From: the human T2T-CHM13v2.0 reference genome, Homo sapiens
DNA: 64,000 bases
Strand: one strand, 5' to 3'
Assembly (NCBI RefSeq): GCF_009914755.1
Contig: NC_060938.1
Of this stretch, positions 12,454 through 64,000 are shown in pieces. The stretch's first letter is position 1, and each line of letters opens with the position of its first letter. The position numbers and the translations under genes were made by a program. The notes under the pieces are model-generated. The model was not told the origin of the DNA. It saw only the letters and a list, made by a program, of their open reading frames with translations, and did not search any database.

Positions 12454-13674
12454 GAGTTATATATTTTATCTATATATGTATATAGTTTATCTAAAAATAT
12501 TTTTCTCATATATATGTATATATTTTATCTAAGCCAGATTAATTTATATTTATACATTTTATCAGATTTACACCTAGTTATTTTGGGTGCTTTTGGTGCT
12601 AATGTAAAAGATGCTTTGAATTTCAAATTCCAATTGTTTATTGATGGTATGTAGGAAAGTTATTGACTTTAATATATTAACATTGTGTCATGCAATCTTG
12701 CTATTTGTCGTAATTGCTTATTAATTCCAGGAATTTTTTTTCCACATAGACAATCATGTCATATGTGAACAAAGACAGTTTTATTTGTTTCTTCCCAACC
12801 TGTATGCCTTTTGTCTTCTTTTCTGGTCTTACTGCATTGGCTAGGATTTCAGTGTAATGTTGAATAGGTGTGGTGAGAGGGACATCCTGGTTTCATTCCT
12901 TATCTTAGGCAGAAAGCAACTAGTTTCCCACCATTAAGTATGATGTTAGCTGGAAGTTTTTGGTAGATATTCCTTATCAAGCTGAAAAAGTTTTCTTAAA
13001 TTTTTAATTTGCTGAGAGTTTTGATCATGAATAAATGTTGGATTTTTCAAATGCTTTTGCTGCATTTATTGATATGATTTTTCTTCTTTAACCTGATTTT
13101 ATGGATTATATTAATAAATTTTTGAACATTCAATCAGCCTTGCATACCTGCCGTATGGTTGTGATGGATTGATTGATTTCCTCGTATTTTGTTGGAGATT
13201 TTAACACCTGTATTCATGAGATACATTGGTACATGATTTTTCTTTCTTGCAATATCTTCATCTGGTTTTGGTATTAAGGTGATACTGGCCTATTAGAATA
13301 AATTAGTAAGTGTTCCCTCTGCTTCTGTTTTCTGGAAGAGATTGTGAAGAATTGTTATCATTTCTTTCTTAAATGTTTGGTAGAATTCACCAGTGAGACT
13401 ATCTGGGCCTGGTGCTTTGTGTTTTGGAAGGTTATTAATTGCTCATTCAATTTCTTTTTTTTTTTTATTATTATACTTTAAGTTTTAGGGTACATGTGCA
13501 CATTGTGCAGGTTAGTTACATATGTATACATGTGCCATGCTGGTGCGCTGCACCCACTAACTCATCATCTAGCATTAGGTATATCTCCCAATGCTATCCC
13601 TCCCCCCTCCCCCCACCCCACAACAGTCCCCAGACTATGATATTCCCCTTCCTGTGTCCATGTGATTTCATTGT

Positions 13675-17499
<3,825 letters not shown>

Positions 17500-17562
17500 T
17501 ATGATGTTAGCTGGTTACTTTGCTCGTTAGTTGATGCAGTTTCTTCCTAGTCTCGATGGTCT

Positions 17563-18578
17563 TTACATTTTGGCATGATTTTGCAGCGGCTGGTACTGGT
17601 TGTTCCTTTCCATATTTAGTGCTTCCTTCAGGAGCTCTTTTAGGGCAGGCCTGGTGGTGACAAAATCTCTCAGCATTTGCTTGTCTGTAAAGTATTTTAT
17701 TTCTCCTTTGCTTATGAAGCTTAGTTTGGCTGGATATGAAATTCTGGGTTGAAAATTCTTTCCTTTAAGAATGTTGAATATTGGCCCCCACTCTCTTCTG
17801 ACTTGTAGAGTTTCTACTGAGAGATCAGCTGTTAGTCTGATGGGCTTCCCTTTGTGGGTAATGCAACCTTTCTCTCTAGCTGCCCTTAACATTTTTTCCT
17901 TCATTTCGACTTTGGTGAATCTGACAATTATGTGTCTTGGAGTTGCTCTTCTGGAGAAGTATCTTTGTGGCGTTCTCTGTATTTCCTGAATCTGAATGTT
18001 GGCCTGCCTTGCTAGATTGGGGAAGTTCTCCTGGATAATATCCTGCAGCATGTTTTCCAATTTGGTTCCATTCTCCCCATCACTTTCAGGTACACCAATC
18101 AGACGTAGATTTGGTCTTTTCACATAGTCCCATATTTCTTGGAGGCTTTGCTCATTTCTTTTTATTCTTTTTTCTCTAAACTTCCCTTCTCCCTTCATTT
18201 CATTCATTTCATCTTCCATTGCTGATACCCTTTCTTCCAGTTGATCGCATCGGCTCCTGAGGCTTCTGCATTCTTCACGTTGTTCTTGAGCCTTGGTTTT
18301 TGGCTCCATCAGCTCCTTTAAGCACTTCTCTGTATGGTTATTCTAGTTATACATTCTTCTAAATTTTTTTCAAAGTTTTCAACTTCTTTGCCTTTGGTTT
18401 GAATTTCCTCCCGTAGCTCAGAGTAATTTGATCGTCTGAAGCCTTCTTCTCTCAGCTCGTCAAAGTCATTCTCCATCCAGCTTTGTTCCTTTGCTGGTGA
18501 GGAACTGCGTTCCTTTGGAGGAGGAGAGGCGCTCTGCTTTTTAGAGTTTCCAGTTTTTCTGTTCTGTTTTTTCCCCAT
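17563..18578 (-). pseudogene. L1 ORF1, frameshifted
   Basis: MGKKQNRKTGNSK...LQNHAKM, split by a 1-bp deletion near 18335. Confidence 0.97.
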
Positions 18579-19486
18579 CTTTGTGGTTTTATCTACTTTT
18601 GGTCTTTGATGATGGTGATGTACAGATGGGTTTTTGGTGTGGAAGTCCTTTCTGTTTGTTAGTTTTCCTTCTAACAGACAGGACCCTCAGCTGCAGGTCT
18701 GTTGGAATACCCTGCCGTGTGAGGTGTCAGTGTGCCCCTGCTCGGGGGGTGCCTCCCAGTTAGACTGCTCGGGGGTCAGGGGTCAGGGACCCCCTTGAGG
18801 AGGCAGTCTGCCCATTCTCAGATCTCCAGCTGCATGCTGGGAGAACCACTGCTCTCTTCAAAGCTGTCAGACAGGGACATTTAAGTCTGCAGAAGTTACT
18901 GCTGTCTTTTTGTTTGTCTGTGCCCTGCCCCCAGAGATGGAGCCTACAGAGGCAGGCAGGCCTCCTTGAGCTGTGGTGGGCTCCACCCAGTTTGAGCTTC
19001 CCGGCTGCTTTGTTTACCTAAGCAAGCCTGGGCAATGGCGGGCTCCCCTCCCCCAGCCTCGCTGCCGCCTTGCAGTTTGATCTCAGACTGCTGTGCTAGC
19101 AATCAGCGAGACTCCATAGGCATAGGACCCTCCGAGCCAGGTGTGGGATATAATCTCGTGGTGCGCCGTTTTTTAAGCCTGTCGGAAAAGCGCAGTATTC
19201 GGGTGGGAGTGACCCGATTTTCCAGGTGCTGTCCGTCACCCCTTTCTTTGACTCGGAAAGGGAACTCCCTGACCCCTTGGGCTTCCCAAGTGATGCAATG
19301 CCTCGCCCTGCTTCGGCTAGCGTGCAGTGTGTGCACCCACTGACCTGTGCCCACTGTCTGGCACTCCCTAGTGAGATGAACCCGGTACCTCAGATGGAAA
19401 TGCAGAAATCACCTGTCTTCTGCCTTGCTCACGCTGGTAGCTGTAGACCGGAGCTGTTCCTATTCGGCCATCTTGGCTCCTCCCCC
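18579..19486 (-). promoter_or_regulatory. L1 5'UTR: internal sense promoter plus antisense promoter (the latter fires on the + strand)
   Basis: YY1 site CAAGATGGCC intact at the 5' end. Residual CpGs. The position is standard for the L1 antisense promoter. Confidence 0.75.
19035..19343 (+). CDS. L1 ORF0 (antisense ORF), open for 102 aa; expression unknown
   Basis: MAGSPPPASLPPCSLISDCCASNQRDS... matches the primate L1 ORF0 N-terminus. Context gcaATGg. Confidence 0.6.
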   Translation: MAGSPPPASLPPCSLISDCCASNQRDSIGIGPSEPGVGYNLVVRRFLSLSEKRSIRVGVTRFSRCCPSPLSLTRKGNSLTPWASQVMQCLALLRLACSVCTH

Positions 19487-20643
19487 CATTCAATTTCTTT
19501 AATAGATTCAGGCCTATTCAGATGGTCTGTTTCTCCTTGTATGAGTTTTTATAGATCTTTTGAGGAATTAGCCCATTTTATCTAAATATTATCACGTTGT
19601 GGGCATAGAGTTGTTTAAAATAGTCTTTATTATCCTTTTATTGGCCATGGGGTCAGTAGTAATGTCTCCTCTTTCATTTCTGATACTAATATTTTATTTT
19701 TACATTGTTAGCCTGGCTAAGGGTTTATCAATTAGATTGCTCTATTTTTGGTTTTGTTGATTTTCTTATTTCTTCCCCTTTTTCAATTTTGTTAATTTCC
19801 ACTCTAATTTTTATTAGCTCTTTTCTTCTGCTTGCTTTAAGGTTATATAACTCTTTCTCTAGTTATCTAATGTGTAGGCTTAGGTTACTGATTTTAGGTC
19901 TTTCTTCTTTTCTAATATGTAAATTCAGTATTACAAATTTCCCTCTAGACATTGTTCTTGCTGCATTCTGCACATTTTGATAAATTGTATTTTTATTTTC
20001 ATTTATTTTTTAATTTTCTTGAAACTTCTTCTTTGACCCATGTGTTATTTAAAAGTGTGTTGTTTAATCTCCAAATATTTGACATCCATCTCGATATTTT
20101 TATTGATTTCTATTTTAATTCAATTGTGGTCTAAGAGCATACTTTGTATGATTTCTATTCTTTAAATTATTACAGATGTTTTTATGGCCCAGAATGTGGT
20201 CTATCTTGGTGAATGTTCCCTGTGAGTTTGATAAGAATGTTTATTCTGCTGTGGTTGGGGAAGTGTTCTAAAAATGTCAATTAAATCCAGTTGACTGACA
20301 GTGCTGTTCAGTTCAACTATATTCTTACACTGATTTTCTGCTTGCTGGATCTGTGCATTACAGATAAAATCTCCAACTATAATTGTGGATTCATCTACTT
20401 TGCCTTATACTTCTGTAAGTTTTGCATAATGTATTCTGGTTCTCTGAATACACATTAATTATTATGTCTTTTTGGAGAATTGACACTTTTATTAATATAT
20501 AACACTCTTCTTTATCCCTGATAAATTTCCTTGCCTTGATTCTGCTTTATCTGAAATCAACGTAGCTTCTTCAGCTTTCTTTTGACTGGTGTTAATATGG
20601 TACATCTTTCTCCATCCCTTTACTTTTAATCTGCATTTCTACA

Positions 20644-20866
20644 CAAGCTGTGTATCCCTTATCCAAAATGCTTAGGACCAAAAGTTTTTCAGATTTCAGA
20701 CTTTTTTGGACTTTGGAATATTTGTATTATATTTACAGGTTGAACATCCCTAATCTGAAAATCTCTCCAGTGAGCATTTCCTTTGATCATCATGTCAGTG
20801 CTCAAAAGATGTTGGATTTTGGCACACTTTTGATTTTGGATTTTCAAATTAGGGATGCTCAACCTG
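20644..20866. mobile_element. MER46/Tigger4-derived MITE
   Basis: caagctgtgtatcccttatccaaaatgctt...caggttgaacatccctaatctgaaa...ttagggatgctcaacctg. TIRs and decayed TA flanks. Confidence 0.85.
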
Positions 20867-20955
20867 TGTCTAAAGTATGATTATTGTTGGGTCTTGTTTT
20901 CAATCCACTCTGATAGCCTTTGTCTTTTAACTGGTATATTTAGGTCATTTAGATC

Positions 20956-21331
20956 TACTATGGTCTGCATGTTTATGTCCCCTCAAAATTCATGTTTTGA
21001 AATGCTACCCTCCAAGATGATAGTATTAGGAGGTGGGACTTTTGGAAGGTTGTTGAGTTATGAGGGTAGAGCCCTCATGAATGGTATTATTGCCTTTATA
21101 AAGAGGCCCAAGGCACTTTGTTCACAACTTTCACCACATGAGGACCCTGAAACAAGGTACCCTGAAACAAGGTACCATCTATAAACCAAAAAGTGTGCTC
21201 GCACCAGATATTGAATCTGTTGGTGACTTGATTGTGGACTTCCCAGACTCCAGAACAGTAAGAAATAAACTTCTGTTTTATGAAATACTCAGTTTATAGT
21301 ATTTTGTTATAGCAGCCTGAAGGGACTGACA
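20956..21331 (+). mobile_element. MaLR LTR (MSTD/MLT1A-like)
   Basis: tactatggtctgcatgtttatgtcccctcaaaattc...gagccctcatgaatgg...attttgttatagcagcctga. Contains a 16-bp tandem duplication, accctgaaacaaggt. Confidence 0.9.
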
Positions 21332-23094
21332 TCTAAAGTGATTATTGATACAGTTAAATACCTGCCACATTTTAAATTGTTTTCTATTTGTTTCACTTTT
21401 GAAAAATCTTCCCTTTTTCTAACTTCTTTGATTTTAATTGAGCATTTTATATGATTCCATTTTCCCTCCTTTCTTAGAAATCGATTAAAAAATTTTTAGG
21501 CCTTGACCTAGAGTTTTCAATATATATTTACAAATAATCTAAGTTCACTATCAAATAATAGTATGTAGCTTCATGGGAAGTGCAAATACATTATAACAAA
21601 ATCTTCCCAATGTCTTCTCATTCCTTATAACATTGGTGCATTTATTCTATTTATTCGGAAGCTATATATGTTGTTGATATTATTTTGAACAAACAATTAT
21701 ATATTACATAAGATATGAATAAGAAAGGTATTTTTTTAAAAAAAACCTTCCTTTATACCTTCTTTAACACTCTTCCTTTGTTCATGTAAATGCAAGTTTC
21801 TCACCTATATCATTTTTCTTCTCCCTGAAGAAATTTTCACATTTCTTGCAAGGCAAATAAATCTATTGCTGACAAATTTCCTCAGTTTTTGTTTGTATGA
21901 AAAAGCCTTTATAATTTTTTCACTTTTGAAGGATATTTTCACTGGATATAGAAATCTCGGTTGGTGGTCTTTTTCTTTCAACACTTTAAATACTTCATTC
22001 CACTCTTCTCTTGCTTGCATGGTTTCTGAAGAGAGTTCCAATATAACTCTATCCTTGTTCCTCTGTAGGTAAGGTATTACCCCCCCGCCCCTGCCCTCTG
22101 GCTTTTTTCAAGATGTTTTGTTTTTGGTTTCCTACAGTTGGGATATCATATGCCTAAATTTTGGGTATTCGTTCCCTTGGTATTCTCTGAGCTTTCTCGA
22201 TCTTTGGCTTGGTGTTTCTTATTAATTGTGGAAAATTATGATACGTTATTACTTCTAATATTTCTTTTGCCTCTTTCATTCTTCTCCTAGTATTCCCATT
22301 ATATGTATGTTGTACCTTTTGTCTTGTCCCACAGTTCTTGGATGTTCTGGCCTATTATCTTATGATAATCTTATATTATTTTGTGATTAAAATATCTCTC
22401 TCCTTTCTCTTCTCTTTGGTGGGCTATACTCCCTGGGTTGTGACTTTTAGAAGAATTTCTTAGCCTTTTTCTCCCCTATGCTTATGTGAGACTGAAATTG
22501 AGGCTGGAGTTAGCTAATTGACCTTCCATCAGGTCAGATAAGGCTGTGGTAGTTTCCCTGAGAGCCAGCCTTTGTTATAGAGGACAGAATGAAGACCAGA
22601 ATGCTCTGGGCATATTTCAAAATGGATACTTTTCCCTTGAGTACATTTCAAAATTATTATTTTTACCTGTCTTTGCTGGAAGCAAGAGGGAATTTTTCTC
22701 AGATGTTCACTGTGATAAACTGGTGGGTCTTTTGGAGGGAAAACTCATGAAAATGATTTTTCATTTCATTGTGATTTGTAACTGCAATGCTCTGATGGAT
22801 CTAAGAAGATTTGTTGATTTTCAAATTTTCAGCCCTCTTGTTGTGAGGACAGGAATGATGACTTGCAAACTCTTTACATGTCAGAGTGGAAATCATAAGT
22901 CTTCTCTGTGGATTTTAGATATAAATATAAAAGGTAAAATAGTAGAATTTCTACAATATTACATACAAATATATCTTCATGATTTGAGATAGACAAGTTT
23001 TTTGAAGGTAAAAAAATGCTAAAGAAAAAAATGAATAAATTGGACTTTATTAAAATAAAAAAAAAACTTTTTTTCATCAAAAGACATCAAGAAA

Positions 23095-23258
23095 AGCCAG
23101 GAATGGTGGCACACACCTGTAGTCCTAGCTACTCAGGAGGCTGAGGTGGGAGGATTGCTTGAGCCCAGGAATTTGAGTCTACAGTGTGCTACAATTGCAC
23201 TTGTGAATAGCCACTGCACTCTAGCCTGGGCAACATAATGAGATCCCATCAAAAAAAG
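23095..23258 (+). mobile_element. FAM (fossil Alu monomer)
   Basis: Monomer with the FAM/7SL-type segment gcacttgtgaatagccactgcactc. Degenerate TSD aaaagacatcaagaa / aaaaggcatcaaaa. Confidence 0.85.
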
Positions 23259-23401
23259 GCATCAAAATAGTGAAAATAAAACCACAGAGTAGGTAAAGAT
23301 ATTCACAATACAAATAAGAACTTAATATTCAGTATTTTAAAACATCTATGTCAAAGGGCTTGTATTCAGAATATGAGAACTACGACAACAACAACAAAAC
23401 G

Positions 23402-24120
<719 letters not shown>

Positions 24121-24569
24121 ACAATATCCAAATAACCATTGAGCCTATGAAAACATTAGCCGTGAGGGAATCACAAATTCAAATCCTAACTCTACGCATC
24201 CATCAGAATGGCAAATTTAGAAATCAAAACAATAAAAATCCATAGTGTTGACACGATGTTGACACCCACAGTGTTAAGCAATGGAAACTCTCACTTACTA
24301 CTAATAGGAGATTATTTGTACAACCACTTTGGAACATTCTTTGGCAGTATCTGTTAACGCTAAAACATGTATTCTTTGACCCCCAAAATTCACTCCTAGG
24401 TTTACACCCAACAGAAACGCATCTATATGTGCACCAGAAGACACATTCGAGAATGTCCATAGCAGTATAATTTATAATAGTAGAAACATTCAGATTCTAA
24501 TAAGAGTGGAAATGGATAAATAAATCTTGTTATATTTGTACATGGAATATTACATAATAAAAATAAACA

Positions 24570-24866
24570 AGCCAGACATGGTGCCTCACCTGTAATTCCA
24601 GTGCCTTGGGAGGCCAAGGTGGGAAGATTGTTCAAGCCCTGGAGTTTGAGAACAGCTTGGGCAACGTGTCGAGACTCCATCTCTCCAAAAAAATACAAAA
24701 ATTAGCCAGTTGTGATGGTGTATGCCTGTGATCCCAGCTACTTGGGAAGCTGAGGTGGTATGGGTCACCTGAGCCTGGGAGGTCGAGCCTGCAAGTGAAT
24801 TGAGTTGGTGCCACTGCACTCCAGCCTGGGTGACACAGTGGGACCCTGTCTCGAAAAAAAAAAAAA
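24570..24866 (+). mobile_element. AluJ
   Basis: Diverged dimeric Alu with J-type features (gagcctgggaggtcgag, gggaccctgtctc). Confidence 0.92.
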
Positions 24867-25334
24867 ACTACTGCTACAATATTAAGTGAGCGGAGACAGA
24901 ATCTAAAGAAAACATGTTGTATGATTCTGTTTATGTAAAATTAAAACACAGGCACAAATAGTCAATGCCATTAGAATAGTGGTTACCTTCAAGGAGATAA
25001 CGAGTGGGAGGGGACACCATGAGGGCTTCTGGTGAGTGATCTGGGTGGTAGTTACATGGAGTTTACTTTGTAAAAATTAATGAAGCTGTTAACTTATGTA
25101 CATTATTACTTCAATATGAAACTTACTTTAAAAAACAGGTTATATAATAATACGTACCCTCCAAAATTATGCACACATTATCACAAACATGCTGAAAAGA
25201 TACCAAAATGTTAATGGTGAATATCAATGAGTAGTGAGATTTTCATTTTTGTGATTTTGTTGTATTTTTCAAATTTACTTCAATGAACCAAATTACTGTT
25301 GTGATTAGAAAATATCATTAAATATTACTTACTA

Positions 25335-25610
25335 TCACTCTAGGAACTGTGTGAAAGATGGGTTGGGGAGAGGTAAGACAGGAATGTCAGGAGGCGTTGG
25401 TAACAGCCACGTGAGAGGGGATGAGGGTCTGACTGGGGTTGTGTGGTTAGGGAGGTGGTGCATTATGTTGAAATCAGGAGCACAAGAGGAGTAGAGGCCT
25501 CTCTCTCTTTCCTCTTTCTCTCTCTGGGGGAGGGGCAAGGAGCTGGGGAAGTTCAGTTTTAAACATGTTAGGATTGGGTTCCCTTTGGGATATCCAAGTA
25601 GAGATGTCTG
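25335..25610 (-). mobile_element. L2 fragment
   Basis: gaagttcagttttaaacatgttagg...ctttgggatatccaagtagagatgtc. Confidence 0.6.
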
Positions 25611-27417
25611 TAAATAATTTTAATTGTTATGTAAAATGTCTAATTTCAACATTACCATTTGATATGACCCAGTCTGAATACATTGAGTCACCAAATGAAG
25701 GAATTTTTTCTGTGACATCTTCCCTTCTTGGCCCCATGCATTCACAAATTAGTTCTTTATATCATATAAATGAGAAAACAGTGCCCTGATGAGTATTATA
25801 TTCTCTGCTGGAGCTTTTTCTCCTTTAAGGTGAGTTTTCATGGCACAAATTACACCTCAGGAAAAAGGCACAACTTCTTGCAAGACAATGACTAAATTTT
25901 AGAAGATGAAGATTAAATGGCCAAAGAGCTATAATTACCTCATTATTAAAGATTCTAACATTCAAAAACCAAAGAATTCACTATTGAAACTCCAAGGTAG
26001 TTAAGTGACTGATAATTATTTTTCTTCCTTATCTGTATACCTAATGTAAATCAGGGAAAAGAAATTGAGATAGAAAAAAGTCTTAATAACAATTTTGAGG
26101 TTCCACAGTAAAAACTTTATCAAGAAAACCTAGTTAGATGATGATATACATACTACTATAGGTGTATAAGTAGCTGGTTGCTACCCCCATGCTCCAAGAG
26201 TTCACAAGTGGTTCTTTAATGCATACACTCTTTATTTTGTATTTATTAGAGTATATTTTATATATACATATATAATAGCTTATTTTATACACTCACGGTC
26301 TTTAAATTATAATCATTTGCAGCATAAGAGAGTCTTAGTTAGAAGGTTGTCCTTAGATGACACAAGAGTAAATGATACAGTAATAATGGAAGACCAAATT
26401 TCAACCGATCTGCGCAACTGAGTCTGCCAAATCTTGCTAAATTTGCTTGATTGAAAATTTCTTCCTCTCTTTCTCTGTGTCCCGTACAATTTCACAAAAT
26501 AATCCTAAGATTTGGATGCCCATGTGCTGGCAGTATCTTTTAGTGGTTGGTTGTTAAGTTTGATCATATAACCAAATTGGTGAAAGGGATTTATATATAT
26601 ATGTATATATTTAATATTCATATTGAGAAAAGCACAAAGTCATTTCCATTTTCTTAACCTAATAAAATGTAGCTCTCCTTTGGGTTATTGTTCATTCAAT
26701 AATATAGACTGGACTTTCACATTAGCAGAAATGTTACTGCATCCAATAGATTGTATCTTACTATTCTCTGTCCTTTCCAAAATCATGCTCTGCATGAAAC
26801 TTTTGGTTTATGGGGGTTTCCCCTCATGACAGTACCAACTTGAATGTGTTCTGTAAAATGTCACATTGTCCAAAACTGGTTTTTCTAGCTTTTGTGAAGA
26901 TTATATGGTCTGTGGGTTCTGCCTGGTAAGTTTTTGTACATCACCGTACGTCTCTGCTCATGGTGAGCATTGCAGACTGAGAACAGCTCTACCTTTGGTG
27001 GTTGTTTTATGTTTCCTCAGTGACTGATTTTTATTAGTTTCAAAAGATAACAATATATGCATGCACACACGCTGATGTTTCTGAAGGGCATTGTGATGAA
27101 AGATTAGAATGCTTTTTGCCTTCCTCCTGATCAAACAGTGGGTCTTAGGGAGTATGGGTACATTTACTTTGTCACCAAAGAGAATAAAATCTGTTGACAT
27201 TGTTACTTGTCACTCATCTTCATTCATTCCTTTTTCTTTTTCAAATTATACTCTAAGTTCTGGGATACACGTGCAGAATGTGCAGGTTTGTTGCACCCAT
27301 CCGCCCGTCATCTACATTAGGTATTTCTCCTAATGGTATCTCTCCCCTAGCCCCCAACCCCTTGACGGGCCCCAGTGTGTGATGTTTCCCCTCCCTGTGT
27401 CCATGTGTTCTCATTGT

Positions 27418-31061
<3,644 letters not shown>

Positions 31062-31124
31062 TATGATGCTAGCTGGTTATTTTGCCCATTAATTGATGCA
31101 GTTTCTTCATAGTGTCGATGGTCT

Positions 31125-39692: not shown

Positions 39693-39744
39693 AGAAAGAT
39701 TTTAAGAATAGCTTAGAACAGCACCAAAAAATGCAATTATTAGA

Positions 39745-50685: not shown

Positions 50686-51010
50686 GCATTCTTCTCCTGG
50701 CCATGGACAATAGAACTCTACATTCTCCAGCCTTTGGACTCTGGGACTGGCACCAGTGGCCCCGCAGGTTCACAGGCCTTTGGTCTGAGACCCAGAGTTA
50801 CACCATCAGCTTCCCTGGTTCTCAGGCCTCCAGACTTGGACTGAGCCGTGCTAACAGACTTCCTGGTTCTCTAGCCTGCAAATGGCCTATTGTGGGACTT
50901 CACAGTCTCCATAATTGTGTGAGCCAATTCCTCTAATAAATTCCTTCTCATATGTCTATATCCTGTTGGTTGTGACTCTCTGGAGAACCAACAGGATTCT
51001 GACTAATAAT
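50686..51010 (+). mobile_element. MLT2 (ERVL) LTR, 3' part
   Basis: gagttacaccatcagcttccctggttctcaggcc...ttgtgggacttc...ccataattgtgtgagccaattcctctaataaa...ctgactaata. Confidence 0.9.
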
Positions 51011-51942
51011 ATATTTGTAACTTGCAATTTAATTTGGTTGAAAGATAGTCATTGTAGATTTGTAATAGCTGGGAATTTAAAATAATCTAATGTCCATTCA
51101 CAGGCTAATTATAGAACCATATATACCTCACAATCTCATTTTTATAAAAATCATGTAGTTTTATAAACAGAAATAACTGAAAAGCTATTTGTCAATCTGT
51201 TAATGATGTCACTATAGAGTGGGACTGTGGGAGACGTGCTTTTCTGCCAGTGTATTTTTCAATTATTTGAATCTTTTACAAAGTTTTATACTACTTTTAT
51301 AATCAATAGAAATCGTGCACATACTCATTTTGGGAACTTCAATTGCCTTGACTACTTTCTGAATAGGAAATAATAAAAAGCAAATAGTTCATTCTTACGT
51401 GTAGAACTGGGTAGTGCATGGCAGTAATCAAAACAATCCAAAGGCAAAATGACATATGTCAAAGACTGGTGCTTATCTTGAGTGGTGGAATGATAGGTGA
51501 ATTTTATTATTAATATTTTTGCTTTGTGCTTTTCTGTGTTTTCCCAGTATTCTGTATCAAGCACGTAATGCTTTTGCAATTAGCTGGAAAGCTAGAGTGT
51601 AAATGTTGCAGATGCAAGCAGAAAATGAGAAAGCTTTCAAATAAGACTACCCTCTTCTCTGTGCTAACCTCTCTTAACCAGGGCTATATCCTCCAAAAAT
51701 ATAAAAGCATTAACTTGACCTTCAGCAGCCCTTGTTGTACAGTTACACTTTTTCTAGCTCCTACCTGCTAAAATAATCTTTCAGCCCACAATGAGAGATT
51801 AGGACCTCAGGTAAACAGACCTGGCTGGGTCTGATTCAGGAAGAATCCAGGAACCCGCTTTGCTTAATAAGTCACCATGGTATGGCTGTTAGAGTGAGGC
51901 TGTATTGTGCTTTGCTGGCAATTGCCGGCTAATTGAGCCTCA

Positions 51943-52278
<336 letters not shown>

Positions 52279-53072
52279 TAACTGTAATCTTAAAGAGAGA
52301 AACCAGGAAAGACAATTCTCAAACGGAACTTAAACTCTCATCCCCTCCATGGGTTTGTCAGTGTGGCCAGTACAAAGGGTGGTTGGTCAGTCAGAGCCAG
52401 TACGAAGGTGATTAGTCAAAACGATTTTCTGAGTGATTGTCTGAGAGAATGACCAAGCCACCTCCAAGGCTACGATCCTACTTGGGGATCAAGAGTTAAG
52501 CGCCATGGAAGCCCAAGCTGCAGTGTGCACTGTTTGCCATGTCTACGGGAGCAGGCACCATTCATATATGTGTTAAAAGCAAGCTGGTCACTGTGCTAAA
52601 GCTGACGGCTCTCGTGTTTGAGGAACACATATCTCATGACTTACACAAGTGGAAAAAAAAAAGAAAAAAGAGTTCCTCAGTAGAAGACAAAAGGAAGTGC
52701 TGTAAGTTCAAGTCAATGAGGAAAAGGAGACTGGAAGTTAGTGTTCAGAAGAGGGTGGTGATGAGGAGAAGTCTTCTCTTAGGGAGTAAGTCTGAGCTTC
52801 CCTGATCTGTGTAGGTGGTGCCTTGAGGCACTGAGGGGGATCAGAATGATTCCTTCTCCTGGGCAGTGTTGGTGAGAGATGCCTAAAGGTAGAGAGAGAA
52901 GCAGCCTCTTGAAAATTGGTGTACCCAGGCAGAAAATTCTTGTTCCTCTATGTCAGTGATTCCCCCACCCCCACCCCAGCATTTAATTTTGAAAACTTCA
53001 AATATACAGAAGGTTAAAAAAAAATTGTGGTAAACTGTCATATACTCACCATCTAGGTCCTACCATTAACAT

Positions 53073-53076
<4 letters not shown>

Positions 53077-53110
<34 letters not shown>
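53077..53110. repeat. (GT)17 microsatellite
   Basis: Pure gt run. Confidence 0.97.
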
Positions 53111-53115
<5 letters not shown>

Positions 53116-53164
53116 TCTCCAACCCCCATCCATCTTATTTTTTATGCATTTCAAAGTAGGTTTT

Positions 53165-53596
53165 CACATTGAATACATATGGACACAGAAGGAACAACAG
53201 ACACAGGGACCTGCTTGATGCTGGAGGGAGGAGGGTGAAGACAGAAAAACTACCTGTCGGGTAACTGTGCTTATTACCTGGGTGGCAAAATAATCTATAC
53301 ACCAAACCCCCATGACATGCAATTTACCTTTATTACAAACCTGCACATTATTCCTCAACCTAAAATAAAAGATTTAGGAAAAAAAAGAAAATAGAAGGTT
53401 GCCATGGGGAGGAGAAAACAAGGAGTTGTTAACAGGCATGAAATTGTAGTTTAGAAGATGAAAATGTTCCAGAGATATGTGGTGATGGCTGCACAACAAT
53501 ATGAATGTACTTAATACCACTGAACTGTACATTTAAAAATGATTAATATAGTAAATTCTGTTATATTTTACAATAAAAAAGTTAAAAACAAAAACA
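53165..53596 (+). mobile_element. 5'-truncated L1PA15/16-type 3' end plus an appended older L1MB-type 3'UTR piece
   Basis: aaaactacctgtcgggta...ccaaacccccatgacatgcaatttacc, then gatggctgcacaacaatatgaatgtacttaataccactgaactgtac. The whole unit is flanked by TSD aaagtaggtttt. Confidence 0.85.
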
Positions 53597-53695
53597 AAAG
53601 TAGGTTTTAGACATCAGTGCTTTTCTTAAATAGTTCAGTATGTACATCATAGAGTTGAATATTGATTTACCTTTTTCTTTTAAGGTAAAATTTTC

Positions 53696-53940
<245 letters not shown>

Positions 53941-53965
53941 TAAGGTAAAATTTTCAAAGAACGAA

Positions 53966-54200
53966 GTGAGTCTCTTGAACTTAGGAATTTGAGACCAGCC
54001 TGGGCAACATGGTGAAACCCCGTCTCTACCAAAAATACAAAAAATTAGCCAGGGGTGGTGGCACATGCCTGTGGTTCTAGCTACTCAGGAGGCTGAGGCA
54101 GGAGAATTGCTTGAGCCTGGGAGACAGAGGTTGCAGTGAGCTGAGACTGAGCCACTGCGCTTCAGCCTGGGTAACAGAGAGAGACCCTGTTTCAAAAAAA
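53966..54200 (+). mobile_element. 5'-truncated older Alu (J/S)
   Basis: gagaccagcctgggcaacatggtgaaaccccgtctctac...gagaccctgtttcaaaaaaa. Confidence 0.92.
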
Positions 54201-54224
54201 TAGATACAGACAATTACAAAAACC

Positions 54225-54850
54225 CAATGAAGTTCTCTTATACCCCTTCCCACTTAATTCGCACCTCCTCCCCACCAGAGGAAACTACTGTTCTAATTTT
54301 TTTCCACCACAGAACAGTTCTGCTTGTTCTAGAACTTCATGCAAATGGAATCATATAATATATACTCTCAAATAAGGCTTTTTTTCTCTCAGTATATTTT
54401 TGAGATTCATCCCTGTTGTTGCATATATCAATAATTCATCCCTTTTTATTGCAAGTATTCCCATTGAATGAATATATGACAGTTTGTTGATTCATTCTGC
54501 TATTGGCAAATACAGGAGTTTTCAGTTTGGGGCTATCGTGAATAAAGCTGCTATAGACATTCTTGTACAAATCTTTGTGTGAATGAAAAGAAATGTTTTC
54601 ATTTCTCTTGGGTAATTACTTGGGAGTAGAATTGCTGAGTCATAGGGTAGGTGTATGTTAGTTTTACAAAAACTTTGCAGCCCTTTTTGCAAAGTGCTTA
54701 TACCATTTCATACACTCACTCCTGATATATGAGAATTCCAGTGATTCTACGTCCTCACCAGCATTTAGTGTCGTTGGTCCTTTTTAATTTTAGCCATTCT
54801 GGAAGGTGTGTTGTGATGGTTCATTGTGATTTGAATCTGCATTTTCTAGG
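54225..54850 (-). mobile_element. Old L1M (L1MB/ME) 3' region
   Basis: ttctagaacttcatgcaaatggaatcata; gtagaattgctgagtcatagggtagg; ttttagccattctgg. Confidence 0.85.
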
Positions 54851-55115
54851 CCAGTGGTTTTCCAATTTTGGTGTGCTACAACACACCTGGGGTGCTTGTT
54901 AAAGTATAGACTCCTAGGCCCCAACTAGAGAGTGTTTGTGTGTTTATTAGTATTTGTGTTATATTTTTATTTGTTAAAGCTGGTAACCTAAACCCCAACA
55001 CAGTTTTGAATTCAGAAGATCTGGTGGGGTTGAGGGCAACAGGTGTCTGCCTCTTAACTAGCTCCCTGGAGATTCTGCTGAATGTGGTTCAATAGACCAG
55101 CCCTGAGAAACTGGC
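54851..55115. mobile_element. MER5A-like hAT MITE with an internal insertion
   Basis: cagtggttttccaa...cacctggggtgcttgttaaa...ctcctaggcccca...ttaactagctccctggagattctg...tgagaaactg. Confidence 0.7.
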
Positions 55116-55575
55116 CCTCTGGGGGTTGCAAACTGACATATTTGATATCGGTGTGCATTCACTTTTACCTGGCAACTAGAATTGGTCCAATTTCTTCCAA
55201 TGGTGGTACATGGGTACTTTTCATGCTTAATAAAAGCTTTACTGCTACTATTTTAATCTTCAAAAATTGGAGACTTCAGGGATGAATATATTGTCTCATG
55301 TAGAGCAAAAGAATCTAGATTTTCTGAACCAAATTCCAAAAGAAAGATGTTTCAGGAAACTGTGCCAAAAACAAAATCCATAATTTTCAGGTATCTACAA
55401 TCAGCATATTATTCTCAAAAACAATTTTATGGGTCAGAGATGAAGAAGCTGATTACCATAATCTTATTTCCATGAATGGGTTAATGTATTTGATAGTTTT
55501 ATCTAATTCCAGTAGTTTTATAGGCCTGCATAGCCTAATGGCAACTGGTAGGAAAAAGATTGAAAATACATAGGC

Positions 55576-56604
55576 GTGGTGCCAACATGGCCGAATAGGA
55601 ACAGCTGCGGTCTACAGCTCCCAGCGTGAGCGACGCAGAAGATGGGTGATTTCTGCATTTCCATCTGAGGTACCGGGTTCATCTCACTACGGAGTGCCAG
55701 ACAGTGGGCTCAGGACAGTGGGTGCAGCGCACCGTGCGCGAGCCGAAGCAGGGTGAGGCATTGCCTCACTTGGAAAGTGCAAGGGGTCAGGGAGTTCCCT
55801 TTCCTAGTCAAAGAAAGGGGTGACAGATGGCACCTGGAAAATCGGGTCACTCCCACCCCAATACTGTGCTTTTCCGACGGGCTTAAAAAACGGTGCACCA
55901 GGAGATTATATCCCGCACCTGGCTCGGAGTGTCCTATGCCCACGGACTCTCACTGATCGCTAGCACAGCAGTCTGAGATCAAACTGCAAGGCGGCAGCGA
56001 GGCTGGGGGAGGGGAGCCCGCCATTGCCCAGGCTTGCTTAGGTAAACAAAGCAGCCAGGAAGCTCCAACTGGGTGGAGCCCACCACAGCTCAAGGAGGCC
56101 TGCCTGCCTCTGTAGGCTCCACCTCTGGGGGCAGGGCACAGACAAACAAAAAGATGGCAGTAACCTCTGCAGACTTAAATGTCCGTCTGACAGCTTTGAA
56201 GAGAGCAGTGGTTCTCCCAGCATGCAGCTGGAGATCTGAGAATGGGCAGACTGCCTCCTCAAGTGGGTCCCTGACCCCCAACCCCCGAGCAGCCTAACTG
56301 GGAGGCACCCCCCAGTAGGGGCAGACTGACACCTCACACGGCCAGGTACTCCTCTGAGACAAAACTTCCAGAGGAACGATCAGACAGCAGCATTCGCGGT
56401 TCACGAAAATCCGCTGTTCTGCAGCCACTGCTGCTGGTACCCAGGCAAACAGGGTCTGGAGTGGACCTCTAGCAAACTCAAACAGACTGCAGCTGAGGGT
56501 CCTGTCTGTTAGAAGGAAAACTAACATACAGAAAGGACATTCACACCAAAAACCCATCTGTACATCACCATCATCAAAGAGCAAAAGTAGATAAAACCAC
56601 AAGG
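55576..56604 (+). promoter_or_regulatory. L1 5'UTR: sense and antisense promoters, with the ZNF93-bound segment at about 56352-56480
   Basis: YY1-type AACATGGCCG. Extra segment ctctgagacaaaacttccagagg...gcagccactgctgctg...agcaaact is absent from the L1 at 13-19 kb. Confidence 0.75.
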
Positions 56605-57620
56605 ATGGGGAAAAAACAGAGCAGAAAATCTGGAAACTCTAAAAACCAGAGCGCCTCTCCTCCTCCAAAGGAATGCAGCTCCTCACCAGCAACAGAACAA
56701 AGCTGTACAGAGAATGACTTTGACGAGTTGAGAGAAGAAGGCTTCAGATGATCAAACTACTCCAAGCTACAGGAGGAAATTCAAACCAAAGGCAAAGAAG
56801 TTGAAAACTTTGAAAAAAATTTAGAAGAATGTGTAACTAGAATAACCAATACAGAGAGTGCTTAAAGGAGCTGATGGAGCTGAAAGCCAAGGCTCAAGAA
56901 CTACGTGAAGAATGCAGAAGCCTCAGGAGCCAATGCGATCAACTGGAAGAAAGGGTATCAGTGATGGAAGATGAAATGAATGAAATGAAGCGAGAAGGGA
57001 AGTTTAGAGAAAAAAGAATAAAAAGAAACGAACAAAGCCTCCAAGAAATATGGGACTATGTGAAAAGACCAAATCTACGTCTGACTGGTGTACCTGAAAG
57101 TGACGGGGAGAATAGAACCAAGTTGGAAAACACTATGCAGGATATTATCCAGGAGAATTTCCCCAATCTAGCAAGGCAGGCCAACATTCAGATTCAGGAA
57201 ATACAGAGAACGCCACAAAGATACTCCTCCAGAAGAGCAACTCCAAGACACATAATTGTCAGATTCACCAAAGTTGAAATGAAGGAAAAAATGTTAAGGG
57301 CAGCTAGAGAGAAAGGTTGCATTACCCACAAAGGGAAGCCCATCAGACTAACAGCTGATCTCTCGGCAGAAACTCTACAAATCAGAAGAGAGTGGGGGCC
57401 AATATTCAACATTCTTAAAGGAAAGAATTTTCAACCCAGAATTTCATATCCAGCCAAACTAAGCTTCATAAGTGAAGAAGAAATAAAATACTTTACAAAC
57501 AAGCAAATGCTGAGAGATTTTGTCACCACAAGGCCTGCCCTAAAAGAGCTCCTGAAGGAAGCACTAAACATGGAAAGGAACAACCAGTACCAGCCACTGC
57601 AAAATCATGCCAAATTGTAA
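56605..57620 (+). pseudogene. L1 ORF1, disrupted
   Basis: ATG at 56605, TGA at 56749, 1-bp deletion near 56856. The C-terminal 248 aa are open. Confidence 0.96.
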
Positions 57621-57683
57621 GGACCATCAAGGCTAGGAAGAAACTGCATCAACTAATGAGCAAAGTAACCAGCTAACATCATA

Positions 57684-61508
<3,825 letters not shown>

Positions 61509-64000
61509 ACAATGAGAACACATGGACACAGGAAGGGGAACATCACACTCTGGGGACTGTTGTGGGGTGGGGGGAGGGGGGAGGGATAGCATTAGGAGAT
61601 ATACCTAATGCTAGATGACGAGTTAGTGGGTGCAGCACACCAACATGGCACATGTATACATATGTAACTAACCTGCACATTGTGCACATGTACCCTAAAA
61701 CTTAAAGTATAATAATAATAAAATAAAATAAAAATAATAGTAAAATGTGAAATCAATTTAAAAAAAGAAAATACATAGGCATTTTATTACTGTAATAGGT
61801 GCTAGGATGGAGGGAAAAAAGGACAAAGCTGCTATTAACCTAAAGCAATAATAAATATATGTTATCCATAGGCTCAGCCAAAGGAAAGACATGAACAATG
61901 AAAATACTAACAGTAATATTGAATTTGTTCAGTACCTTTTTATCAAGAACTCCAAGGCAATTGTGAGTGATGGCTCCCTAAATCTCACATCTCTGTAAGT
62001 TAGGCAGGGTGGGGAATGACACCACATTTTTTTCCAGTGGAGAAATTAAGGGATAGAATCTTTAATATAACAATAGGTACAAAGAACAGAACCAAAGGCA
62101 AGAATGGAAGTAAAGAGTATCCCAGGGCTCGTAACTTCCTTTTGTGTGTTACTGTATCCAAGTCTGGTTGTTCAGTCATTCTCAGAACACATCTTGGGTT
62201 GCATGATATGTACCACACAAACACACAGACAGGATTCAGCTGGGAACAGGTGAAAAAACAGCACTGGTCTACGTTTGAAAAATGTTGACAGTCAAAATGC
62301 TTCTCTTGAATTCTCTAGTTCCTATTTCTTTTTTCATTAAAGAATGTGGCTAAAGAGTAAAGAGTACTATTAATATATAAGGAGAGCAAAGCAGAAGCAT
62401 TCTCATGTTGCTTCTCGGAGCTTTACAGATAAATAATTAAACACAAAGCCCAAACTCCCCATTTCTGCCTTCAGTGATTTTTTTTCCCCCTCCTTCTGCA
62501 CTGAACACGTGTATCTCTTTAAGAATTGGTCTGGCCTGGTGGTAACCTGTCCCGCTGAAGGCTGGGCATCAACACCACTGCCTTTGCTAAGGCTGGCAGT
62601 CAGCTTGCTGTCAGCTTGCTTCTTGCAGCCTCTTCAGCTCTCAGACATCTGTAGCTCTGGGCTGGTTAGAGCTGAACATTCCACTCAGAAGAATGATCTC
62701 TAGATCTTGGAGAAGAGAAACCCCATTAGGTGTTTGGTTTCGATAGGAAGTCATTTTTCAAATTTGCTGTTTTAGAGGGCATTTTTGGAAATGTTTGCCA
62801 TGATTCTTCAAATTTCATTTGACAGATGGGGAAGTTTAAAGATAAACATGATCTCGCTCCTTTGAAAACCTTGGCAATTCCTCTTCTTCCAGTAGGAATC
62901 TCTAGCTCTTTTCTCTTACCTCATCTCTGTAATTTTTCCTACCTACGCTCCTCTTTCCTTCTCTTGTATCAAACTTATACCTCTTTATTCTCTTAATTTA
63001 GCCAGTTTTTCCAACTAAGTTTAGGAAATATCATGTGAGCTCTGGGCCATGCTATTTCCAAGTAGAATTAGACATATTGGATCTCTGTCTTCATCTGAAA
63101 GCTCTTTTGGCCTTTTTTTTTTCCATCCTTTAATCATCCTTGTTGCTCAGTATCGAACCTATCTCAGTTCCCCATGACCCCCTTAAGAGAAAGAGACTAG
63201 AAAGAGATTGTGTCTCCTTTGTCAGGGTCTCGTTTTCAACATCATATATTAGCAATGCTTTTGGTTCAGAGGTCACCAGATGTACAGTGAATTTCCCCTA
63301 AAATGGAAAATGTTAAGATACAGGCCAGCATCTCCTTCCCCCTCTATCTCACAGATTTTGACTTGCTGCCTATTTTTTGGCCATTTAACCCTTTAAGAAG
63401 GAACACCAAATAAGCGCTTTCATGCTCAATTATCTTTGACTTGCAATCTAAAATGAACCATTTACTGAACAGGGAGAGAAACATGAAAAGCAAACACTAT
63501 TAAAGAATTATAGACTTCATAAGCTGCACAGTACTTGTGCATTTTGCTCTGTAGTGAAGGAACCTGTAAAATTGTACAGACGTTAGGAGAAAAGTTGCCA
63601 CCCAGCATGCGTTGATTTAACGGCATAACTTCCAGTAATGTAAAGTAGGGACCTTGATTCTTAGGGCACATTTTGTTATCCTTTCTTTCTTAATAGGACA
63701 AGGTTTAAAATATGCTGCTGTGCATACACAATAGCTGCTTTCCACTTATGCTGTTATCTGTGCAGAAATCATTCTCTCAGGCAAGAGATTAAAATAAATG
63801 CATAACAACTTTTTAGAATTGCTAATCCAAGTAAACTTCTCACAGAAAATTCAGCCTTTGAAGAAGGCATCTTAAACCTTGATATAAACAAACATTAATA
63901 AAATGTACTTCTTCCTACAATGGACAGTGATGACAATGAGATAGATATATGACTTGTTTTTTCCTTAGGAAGCCAATATTTGCTTTACTGCTTTAGATTG

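What the first reader, a model, noticed from the sequence alone, without database searches (positions are those of the whole stretch)
13458..61766. Inverted L1PA3-like pair shares private substitutions in patches: gene conversion or inversion toggling across 36 kb
Seen: the minus L1 (13458-19486) and the plus L1 (55576-61766) face head to head. They differ at sublineage-type sites: 129-bp 5'UTR segment absent vs present; ORF1 KTK/KAK and AKM/AKL; ORF2 TNY/TNC, WDA/WDT, YFK/YLK. Yet they share clustered unusual bases: ggggAgcccgcc (19044/56015), gcagcTaga (17878/57305), ggtTGCAttacc giving EKGCITH (17861-17866/57318-57321), caa[GA]Tcaga (17801/57382), ttaaagGaaag giving LKGKN (about 17762/57421), caaaGtaacc (17518/57665), gtaaaCggac (17452/57731), aaaaCacac giving IKTHR (17429/57754), and attgGggc giving EIGA. 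The L1PA7 in the same window shows the other state at several of these sites (gcagccag, ggtcaggttac, caaaataacc, gtaaatgga, aaaagacac), matching the consensus as I recall it. Most are not simple CpG decay. Each element still has its own matching TSD pair, so the current orientation is ancestral. Inference: the two copies have repeatedly exchanged sequence in cis by non-allelic gene conversion or an even number of NAHR inversions. That would make the 36-kb spacer a candidate recurrent or polymorphic inversion.
Basis: partly seen in the sequence, partly recalled or inferred. Interest (0 to 1): 0.8.

Follow-up and report, generated by a model that had tools for sequence, protein, structure and literature searches.

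The report
Gene conversion between two neighbouring L1s
Two old, dead LINE-1 copies that sit head to head 36 kb apart on human chromosome 14 have copied about half a kilobase of sequence from one to the other, a clear but ordinary example of gene conversion between nearby repeats.

Summary
The minus L1 (A, 13458-19486) and the plus L1 (B, 55576-61766) are separate insertions, each with its own 14-bp target-site duplication. They belong to different L1PA3 sublineages. A is the young form without the 129-bp 5'UTR segment, and B is the older form with it.

In B 57230-57754 (end of ORF1, spacer, start of ORF2) they share 9 substitutions seen in 0 or 1 of 27-28 other copies. These were also absent from 12-13 copies of their own 3' sub-subfamily. 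Whole-genome pattern scans find the combinations only in A and B.

The sharing falls in two tracts:
- 57227-57472, with 4 differences.
- 57658-57919, which is 262/262 identical.

A 185-bp stretch between them keeps 12 differences. Only inside the tracts is A the best genome-wide match to B (against 17, 73, 74).

Non-allelic gene conversion is the best explanation (about 0.8). Inversion toggling is not supported. A reciprocal exchange cannot make both copies carry the same private bases, and the target-site duplications are unswapped. No inversion at this locus turned up in the papers I could read. Direction and date need ape orthologues. This is a new instance of a known process, of modest interest.

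The parts
13458..19486 (-). L1 copy A: full length (6029 bp), young L1PA3 form without the 129-bp 5'UTR segment, both ORFs broken
   Evidence: Young-type state at 7 of 7 sublineage sites in the 5' 3.5 kb. Its 3' half matches the 60150C/60184C sub-subfamily.
13444..13457 (-). 3' target-site duplication of A (AAAGAAATTGAATG on the minus strand)
   Evidence: exact 14-bp match with 19487-19500.
19487..19500 (-). 5' target-site duplication of A
55576..61766 (+). L1 copy B: full length (6191 bp), older L1PA3/L1PA4-like form with the 129-bp segment, both ORFs broken
   Evidence: Old-type state at 6 of 7 sublineage sites.
55562..55575 (+). 5' target-site duplication of B (GAAAATACATAGGC)
   Evidence: exact 14-bp match with 61767-61780.
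61767..61780 (+). 3' target-site duplication of B
56353..56480 (+). 5'UTR segment present in B and absent in A. It corresponds to the '129-bp' deletion described as ZNF93 evasion in L1PA3.
   Evidence: 128-column gap in A. Published background from passages of preprint 10.1101/429613. ZNF93 binding was not tested here.
57227..57472 (+). Conversion tract T1 in B (ORF1 C-terminal part). Shared sites at 57230-57421; limits set by the nearest A/B differences at 57226 and 57473.
   Evidence: Seven shared non-majority sites, six of them 0/27-28. Four A/B differences in 246 bp. A is the best genome-wide match, 426 bits against 413 for the next. A+B form a sister pair with support 0.897.
17711..17956 (-). 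Tract T1 in A
   Evidence: One search places the match at C14:30335711-30335956, which is window 17711-17956.
57473..57657 (+). Unconverted stretch between the tracts (A counterpart 17526-17710)
   Evidence: Twelve differences in 185 bp. Each copy keeps its own sublineage states at 57596, 57615 and 57632.
57658..57919 (+). Conversion tract T2 in B (inter-ORF spacer and first about 79 codons of ORF2). Private shared sites at 57665, 57731 and 57754.
   Evidence: No A/B differences in 262 bp. A is 100% identical and the next-best copies in the genome score 460 against 473 bits. The 35-mer holding 57731C and 57754C is exact only in A and B.
17264..17525 (-). Tract T2 in A
   Evidence: One search places the match at C14:30335264-30335525, which is window 17264-17525.
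59917..60294 (+). Possible further tract, at low confidence. B, otherwise old-type, carries the derived block 59917C/60150C/60184C/60294A that is typical of young copies lacking the 129-bp segment. A counterpart is about 14890-15268.
   Evidence: 60150C, 60184C and 60294A are each 0/12 in the old-type panel, and 59917C is 2/12; the four older copies that aligned have T at 60150 and A or G at 60184, never C; 10 of 12 usable copies with this block lack the 129-bp segment. The block holds no A-specific marker, so the donor cannot be named.
19501..55561 (.). Spacer between the inverted L1s. It holds PTCSC3 exons at 24590-24680, 33410-33469 and 47070-47494, and the last two LINC00609 exons.
   Evidence: Hub annotation supplied with the finding; coordinates.

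Best explanation
Two L1PA3-era elements from different sublineages inserted independently, 36 kb apart and in opposite orientation. Both then decayed. Later a DNA break in one copy was repaired by homologous recombination using the other copy as template. This was non-allelic (interlocus) gene conversion without crossover.

The repair copied roughly 250 bp and 260 bp across the ORF1 end and ORF2 start, leaving 185 bp between them unconverted. That gap could mean patchy mismatch repair in one event, or two events. The donor's private decay mutations thereby became shared by both copies. Four further differences have accumulated in the tracts since.

Shown here: independent origin, uniqueness of the shared set in the genome, bounded tracts, and different sublineages in the flanks. 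Inferred: the repair mechanism, the timing, and the direction. The direction is unresolved. B's heavier mutation load in ORF1 slightly favours B as donor.
For: 1. Independent insertions. Each copy has its own matching 14-bp TSD.

2. Different sublineages. The 129-bp segment is absent in A and present in B. A is young-type at 7/7 diagnostic sites and B is old-type at 6/7.

3. Shared bases unique to the pair.
- 9 shared bases between 57230 and 57754 are seen in 0-1 of 27-28 panel copies.
- The same bases are 0/12-0/13 in a random panel of the copies' own 3' sub-subfamily.
- The third L1 in the window carries 0/10 of them.

4. Whole-genome scans.
- The 27-mer with 57305T/57318T/57320C/57321A is exact only in A and B. 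The 2 one-mismatch hits are old, diverged L1s at 58/600 and 171/508 mismatches.
- The 35-mer with 57731C and 57754C is exact only in A and B. All 23 one-mismatch hits carry just one of the two variants.
- The scan has power: a sub-subfamily 35-mer gave 3288 hits.

5. Clustering. 0 of 200000 random placements match it.

6. Bounded tracts.
- A+B are sisters in the patch (support 0.948) and in T1 (0.897), and in none of the five flanking or intervening segments tested.
- A is the best genome-wide hit to B in T1 and T2.
- A is not among the 40 scored hits for the adjacent flanks or for a control ORF2 stretch.
- In the 3' 2.5 kb, A-B differ at 61/2457 sites. Unrelated copies of the same sub-subfamily differ from them at 51-80, and no private shared site occurs there.

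7. Lower divergence in the tracts: 4/508 against 4.2% in the flanks, a ratio of 0.19 with 95% CI 0.05-0.48.

8. The shared changes look like neutral decay. There are 3 synonymous changes and 5 changed codons, including R to C and E to G in the conserved ORF1p C-terminal half.

9. Precedent. Conversion between dispersed repeats rises with proximity (passages of PMC6598467). Break repair between LINE copies is cited in PMC3055243.
Against: - With tract limits set only by the shared sites (282 bp, 4 differences), the drop in divergence is not significant. 666 of 3105 other placements have as few differences.
- T2 alone did not recover an exclusive A+B pair in the tree. That panel included copies picked because they carry one T2 variant.
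- Ten shared changes (about 8 events, if 57318/57320/57321 count as one) is on the high side for one donor's decay in about 500 bp. By my estimate it fits only if the donor had B's local load of 2.5% and the conversion came late in the elements' life.
- A chr11 copy of an older family (L048) shares 57318T, 57321A and 57382T, and has 57421G as its family state. This is unexplained. I take it as coincidence.
- The DNA searches score only 40 of 428-4476 candidates, so 'best match' holds within those scored.
- There is no orthologue or population data.
Confidence: 0.8

Rival explanations
1. Shared rare source lineage. Both copies inherited the patch at birth from related progenitors that left only these two offspring.
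For: Both copies share a 3' sub-subfamily haplotype, 60150C/60184C. An older-family copy on chr11 carries 3-4 of the T1 states, which could hint at stepwise build-up in a lineage.
Against: - The flanks belong to different sublineages: the 129-bp segment differs and 6 of 7 diagnostic sites differ. A common source would itself have to be a recombinant.
- A lineage should differ from its relatives along its whole length. Here 9 of the 10 rare shared sites lie in one patch of about 525 bp and only 1 lies in the other roughly 5.5 kb.
- No other copy in the genome has the set.
- Two sole survivors landing within about 50 kb has a chance of order 3e-5 (my estimate from genome size).
- 5 of 8 changed coding positions alter conserved ORF1p/ORF2p residues, which is unlike an active lineage.
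Confidence: 0.08
2. A third L1, now lost or absent from this haplotype or missed by the scans, donated the patch to both copies.
For: It would account for the rather high number of shared changes. Some of the states occur scattered among older L1 copies: 57305T, 57318T and 57321A in L034, and 57421G in L047, L050 and L051.
Against: - No copy in the assembly carries the combination.
- An older-family donor for T2 would also have brought that family's states 57719C and 57734G, which A and B lack.
- The third L1 in the window has 0/10.
- It needs two conversions from an unseen donor where one between neighbours is enough.
Confidence: 0.07
3. Inversion toggling. Two NAHR crossovers at different points within the L1s exchanged the segment and restored the orientation.
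For: Inverted full-length L1 pairs of about 97% identity do mediate human inversions. There were 22 L1-flanked inversions with median identity 97.2% (passages of preprint 10.1101/2021.12.20.472354), and 8 with median 97.1% in PMC9675761.
Against: - A double crossover is reciprocal. It would swap private bases between the copies, not place the same bases in both. This is a logical point, not a tool result.
- The TSD pairs are unswapped.
- Reported L1-flanked inversions have a median size near 5.5 kb, against the 36-kb spacer here.
Confidence: 0.02
4. Assembly or polishing artefact that homogenised the two copies in CHM13.
For: None from my calls. It is listed because only one assembly was available.
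Against: The tracts are short and embedded in 4-6% divergent sequence. T1 keeps 4 differences. The shared bases are absent from every other copy, so cross-mapped reads from elsewhere could not have supplied them.
Confidence: 0.02

Closest known systems
Non-allelic (interlocus) gene conversion between dispersed retrotransposon copies, best documented for Alu (mosaic subfamily patterns, homogenisation of neighbours)
   Same: Non-reciprocal transfer of a short tract between nearby paralogous copies. One copy becomes a mosaic and gene-tree conflict is confined to the tract. Proximity dependence is described in passages of PMC6598467.
   Different: The partners here are full-length L1s 36 kb apart in inverted orientation. 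The review passage quotes raised rates for Alu pairs under 10 kb apart. The tracts are marked by private decay mutations, not by subfamily-diagnostic sites.
[quoted passage not shown]
   Same: This is the mechanism I propose: homologous repair of a break in one L1 using another L1 as template.
   Different: I know that paper only through its citation and one sentence in PMC3055243. It was an induced break in cultured cells. Here the event is an inferred germline one, millions of years old.
Inverted L1 pairs that mediate polymorphic human inversions by NAHR
   Same: Same substrate type: inverted L1PA copies at about 96-97% identity.
   Different: No inversion is seen or reported here. The spacer is several times the median of known L1-flanked inversions, and the footprint is conversion without crossover.
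L1PA3 'long' and 'short' forms differing by the 129-bp 5'UTR deletion linked to ZNF93 evasion
   Same: B carries the segment and A lacks it. Four of six young-type panel copies also lack it, and all 18 old-type copies carry it.
   Different: Subfamily names are my assignment from these features and from passages of preprint 10.1101/429613. No Dfam or RepeatMasker consensus was available to me.

Membership tests
Interlocus gene conversion between paralogous repeats | The two copies arose independently and are not a segmental duplication | tested here: met
   Each has its own distinct, matching 14-bp TSD pair. They belong to different sublineages.
Interlocus gene conversion between paralogous repeats | A bounded tract in which the two copies are each other's closest relatives, unlike in the flanks | tested here: met
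.
Interlocus gene conversion between paralogous repeats | Shared derived bases in the tract that are absent from other family members | tested here: met
   0-1 of 27-28 copies and 0 of 12-13 copies. Genome-wide the combinations occur only in A and B.
Interlocus gene conversion between paralogous repeats | Lower divergence inside the tract than outside | tested here: inconclusive
   4/508 against 4.2% in the flanks (ratio 0.19) using limits set by neighbouring differences. With limits set by the shared sites, 666 of 3105 placements have as few differences.
Interlocus gene conversion between paralogous repeats | Before-and-after states in orthologous loci of outgroup species | not testable with these tools
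   No ape genome or human pangenome is held.
NAHR inversion polymorphism between inverted repeats | Long inverted repeats of high identity | tested here: met
   About 6 kb, with blocks of 93-99% identity.
NAHR inversion polymorphism between inverted repeats | Chimeric repeats with swapped flanks (TSD partners exchanged) in at least some haplotypes | tested here: not met
   In this single haplotype both TSD pairs match. Other haplotypes could not be examined.
NAHR inversion polymorphism between inverted repeats | Both orientations seen in a population | not testable with these tools
   No listing was found in the main text of the Porubsky preprint, in a truncated supplement of PMC12350158, or in the PMC9675761 supplement. 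That last search used GRCh38 number prefixes I recalled. These look-ups are incomplete.
Full-length L1PA (primate LINE-1) insertion | 5'UTR, ORF1, ORF2, A-rich tail and TSDs, about 6 kb in all | tested here: met
   ORF1 and ORF2 reading frames are recognisable but interrupted in both copies.

The most novel reading that the evidence does not exclude
The conversion tracts are footprints of repeated physical pairing between the two inverted L1s. On this reading the 36-kb interval, which holds the PTCSC3 promoter and first three exons and the last two LINC00609 exons, is still a recurrent or polymorphic NAHR inversion in humans, with exchange running both ways. B-to-A transfer in ORF1 would be suggested by B's heavier local load. 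A-to-B transfer in ORF2 would be suggested by B's out-of-order young-type block at 59917-60294.
Probability: 0.06. Interest if true: 0.6.

Novelty: new member of a known kind. Interest (0 to 1): 0.3.

Why it matters
This is a clean single-locus example of two dead L1 copies exchanging sequence long after insertion. It has three practical consequences.
- Dating or subfamily assignment of individual L1 copies from their substitutions can be misled locally. Here about 10 'private' mutations are in fact copied.
- It shows that 6-kb inverted L1s 36 kb apart did pair at least once in the germline. That is a prerequisite for NAHR, though not evidence of it.
- An inversion here would separate the PTCSC3 promoter and 5' exons from its last exon. 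PTCSC3 is annotated as a thyroid-cancer susceptibility lncRNA in the hub table. Checking this locus in long-read or Strand-seq population data would be cheap.

None of this changes current understanding of repeat biology.

Tried and rejected
1. A second candidate tract at 59514-59986, 99% identical over 473 nt. Rejected. A-B differ at 8/739 sites there, while other copies differ from B at 8-16 and from A at 7-15 (one outlier at 43). There are no private shared sites, and A is not among the 40 scored hits. The 303-bp difference-free run at 59561-59864 stays unexplained. Together with the 263-bp run it is unusual, reached in 4 of 20000 shuffles.

2. Apparent extra closeness of A and B in the 3' 2.5 kb (76/2501 against 88-128). 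This was a panel artefact. With a panel of the right sub-subfamily, A-B is 61/2457 against 51-80. The sites 60150C and 60184C that looked 'private' belong to a haplotype with thousands of copies.

3. Tracing B's source through its odd 3' tail. The only other hit (3 mismatches, chr6) is at chance level and is not next to an L1 3' end.

4. The window's third L1 as donor. It carries 0/10 of the states.

5. An older-family donor. Excluded for T2 by the absence of 57719C and 57734G. No single older copy carries the set.

6. An APOBEC or ADAR editing signature. The 10 changes are mixed: 3 G>C, 3 C>T, 1 G>A, 2 A>G and 1 T>C. I judged this by eye and ran no formal test.

Panels are therefore small (7-28 copies) and cover the element in pieces.

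9. I did not use the protein, structure, complex or Rfam tools. They do not bear on this question.
Full report
**What is there**

The window holds two full-length L1 elements in opposite orientation with their 5' ends facing each other. A is at 13458-19486 on the minus strand (6029 bp). B is at 55576-61766 on the plus strand (6191 bp).

Each is flanked by its own perfect 14-bp target-site duplication:
- B: GAAAATACATAGGC at 55562-55575 and 61767-61780.
- A: AAAGAAATTGAATG, read on the minus strand, at 19487-19500 and 13444-13457.

They are therefore separate retrotransposition events. In this haplotype no odd number of crossovers has occurred between them.

Both have interrupted ORF1 and ORF2. 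There are 218 substitution differences between B 55590 and 61730. That is about 5-6% in the 5'UTR and the first part of ORF1, and 2-4% in ORF2.

**The two copies come from different sublineages**

B carries a 128-column 5'UTR segment (56353-56480) that A lacks. This is the position and size of the 129-bp deletion described for L1PA3. That deletion is said to have arisen in the human-orangutan ancestor and to evade ZNF93 (passages of preprint 10.1101/429613).

I split my panel copies by three ORF1 sites and found seven sites in the 5' 3.5 kb that separate an 'old' group (18 copies, all with the segment) from a 'young' group (6 copies, 4 without it). A is young-type at 7/7 sites and B is old-type at 6/7.

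Mean pairwise distances confirm the age order. They are 4.0-5.8% within old-type panels and 2.7-3.8% within the young sub-subfamily. The names L1PA3 and L1PA4 are my own assignment, because no Dfam consensus was available.

**The shared private bases are real**

I compared A and B with the 28 other copies that best match B 57250-57800 (40 scored of 4476 candidates). A and B share a base found in the following number of those copies:
- 0/28 at 57230, 57305, 57320, 57321, 57382 and 57731
- 0/27 at 57421 and 57665
- 1/28 at 57754

The same states are 0/12 to 0/13 in a second, randomly picked panel of the sub-subfamily to which both 3' halves belong. For that panel, 20 stretches were fetched and 12-13 reached the region.

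The third L1 in the window (27215-31964, 90% identical) has none of the ten states, and one of the sites is deleted in it.

- 56015A is a polymorphism (3/23).
- 57318T is a common CpG decay (4/28).
- 59059G (1/28) stands alone in a 35-bp identical stretch. I estimate about 0.5 such coincidences by chance over 6 kb.

**Genome-wide uniqueness**

Exhaustive pattern scans of the 3.1-Gb assembly gave these results:
- The 27-mer spanning 57305-57321 occurs exactly only in A and B. Its two one-mismatch hits lie in old, diverged L1s at 58/600 and 171/508 mismatches to B.
- The 35-mer with 57731C and 57754C is exact only in A and B. Of its 23 one-mismatch hits, 10 carry only the first variant and 13 only the second.
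- The 48-mer with 57382T and 57421G, allowing one mismatch, is found in B, in A and in one chr11 copy. Four further hits carry one variant each.

As a positive control, a 35-mer holding two sub-subfamily bases (60150C, 60184C) returned 3288 hits. The scan therefore does detect lineage-level variants when they exist.

The chr11 copy (L048) is the one loose end. It belongs to an older family, in which 57421G is the family state. It shares 57318T, 57321A and 57382T but none of the other six, and it is farther from A and B than ordinary copies are (32/600 and 37/600). I treat it as coincidence.

**Anatomy of the exchange**

The map of A/B differences shows two tracts:
- T1, B 57227-57472 (A 17711-17956): seven shared sites and 4 differences in 246 bp.
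- T2, B 57658-57919 (A 17264-17525): three private shared sites and no difference in 262 bp.

Between them, 57473-57657 has 12 differences in 185 bp. There each copy keeps its own sublineage states at 57596, 57615 and 57632.

The patch runs from the last 130 codons of ORF1 through the inter-ORF spacer into the start of ORF2.

Only inside the tracts is A the best hit to B in the whole genome:
- T2: A is 100% identical, and the next best scores 460 against 473 bits (40 scored of 502).
- T1: A scores 426 bits against 413 for the next (40 of 2646).

For the directly adjacent stretches 56960-57226 and 57920-58181, and for 59480-60020, A is not among the 40 scored hits, while many unlinked copies are 97-99% identical to B.

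In trees, A and B are sisters for the patch (support 0.948) and for T1 (0.897). They are not sisters in the five flanking or intervening segments tested, nor for T2 alone. The T2 panel contained copies chosen for carrying one T2 variant.

**Statistics**

- Nine of the ten rare shared sites span 524 bp, which 0 of 200000 random placements reach.
- Divergence in the tracts is 4/508 against 4.2% in the flanks. The ratio is 0.19 with 95% CI 0.05-0.48.
- Those tract limits are set by the neighbouring differences and so favour a low value.
- With limits set only by the shared sites (282 bp), 666 of 3105 other placements have as few differences.

The reduced divergence is therefore suggestive but not proven. 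The timing is loose: the event came after both insertions, with 4 later differences.

**Why gene conversion and not a common source**

- A common source would have to give rise both to an old-type copy with the 129-bp segment and to a young-type copy without it.
- Its own marks would be expected along the whole element. Nine of the ten rare shared sites lie in a patch of about 525 bp, and only one (59059) lies in the remaining 5.5 kb or so.
- It left no other copy in the genome.
- Its only two descendants would have landed within 50 kb of each other, which I estimate at order 3e-5.
- The changes look like decay and not like the evolution of an active element. Three are synonymous (57230, 57305, 57731). 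Five codons change: R to C through 57318 and 57320, V to I, T to I, and E to G in the ORF1p C-terminal half, and R to T at ORF2 codon 24. One site is in the spacer.

**Why not inversion toggling**

Two crossovers at different points in inverted repeats restore the orientation but exchange the segment reciprocally. Private bases would move from one copy to the other and would not end up in both. Only non-reciprocal copying gives the observed pattern.

The pair is nevertheless a plausible NAHR substrate. Among 132 NAHR-type inversions in 41 genomes, 22 were flanked by inverted L1s with median identity 97.2% and median size 5.6 kb (passages of preprint 10.1101/2021.12.20.472354). Another study found 8 L1-mediated inversions with median identity 97.1% (passages of PMC9675761).

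I found no listing of this locus:
- Not in the main text of the first paper.
- Not in a truncated supplement of PMC12350158.
- Not in the supplement of PMC9675761. That search used GRCh38 prefixes I recalled for PTCSC3, so it is weak.

These look-ups do not exclude an inversion.

**Direction, number of events and the mild excess**

No sublineage-diagnostic site falls inside T1 or T2, so the donor cannot be read off directly. B's own mutation load next to the patch (2.5% in 56500-57226) exceeds A's (1.6%).

Ten shared changes is about eight events if 57318/57320/57321 count as one. That number fits a donor with B's load better than one with A's. This is a slight preference, by my estimate.

B, although old-type, carries 59917C, 60150C, 60184C and 60294A. 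These bases are typical of young copies without the 129-bp segment:
- 60150C, 60184C and 60294A are each 0/12 in the old-type panel, which includes two copies without the segment, and 59917C is 2/12.
- Four older copies have T at 60150 and A or G at 60184.
- 10 of 12 usable copies with the block lack the segment.

B is thus out of order, which suggests a transfer into B from a young copy, and A is the nearest one. However, the block has no A-specific marker, its divergence from A is ordinary (8/378), and one random copy (L098) is a similar mosaic. I give this about even odds and do not build on it.

**Known context and novelty**

Non-allelic gene conversion between retrotransposon copies is established, mainly for Alu, with higher rates for close neighbours (passages of PMC6598467). 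Break repair between LINE copies was shown in mouse cells (Tremblay et al. 2000, seen only as cited in PMC3055243). This locus is a well-resolved new instance of that process, not a new kind of event.

**Limits**

- Only one human assembly was available, with no ape genomes and no population data.
- There was no reference consensus.
- Panels held 7-28 copies, covered the element in pieces and were partly chosen by similarity.
- The DNA searches score only 40 candidates each.

Noticed in passing
window 59917-60294 (B) and 14890-15268 (A): B is old-type over most of its length but carries the derived 59917C/60150C/60184C/60294A block of the young sub-subfamily that lacks the 129-bp segment. B is therefore a sublineage mosaic, possibly from a second conversion from A or from another young L1.
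   Followed up: partly
window 59561-59864: A 303-bp run has no A/B difference and no private shared base. Together with the 263-bp run in T2 it is unusual (4 of 20000 shuffles). Either A, nearly mutation-free here (load 0.25%), was copied into B, or it is chance.
   Followed up: partly
G000:C5:65288575-65289250 (-) and C5:65298830-65299505 (+): Another inverted L1 pair, about 10 kb apart on chr5. Both copies give identical scores against B, have the same length difference, and both carry the rare 57754C-type base. It could be an inverted duplication or another case of local homogenisation.
   Followed up: no
L048 = G000:C11:94255375-94258422: An older-family L1 on chr11 shares three rare T1 states (57318T, 57321A, 57382T) with A and B but nothing else. 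I have no explanation beyond coincidence.
   Followed up: partly
L098/L117 = G000:C1:158868150-158872350: An L1 whose ORF1 region is only 87% identical to B and holds the 129-bp segment, while its ORF2 part is 8/330 from B with the young block. It is either a mosaic or two nested or adjacent elements.
   Followed up: no
window 61720-61766: B ends in an interrupted A-rich tail with about 20 bp of non-A sequence before the final A run and the TSD. This may be a very short 3' transduction or a degenerate tail. No source locus was found.
   Followed up: yes
window 55456-56671: The two RefSeq 'enhancer' features in the hub table cover B's 5'UTR, including the 129-bp segment at 56353-56480. A lies inside a PTCSC3 intron in the same orientation as the gene. 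B lies about 8 kb beyond the PTCSC3 first exon.
   Followed up: no
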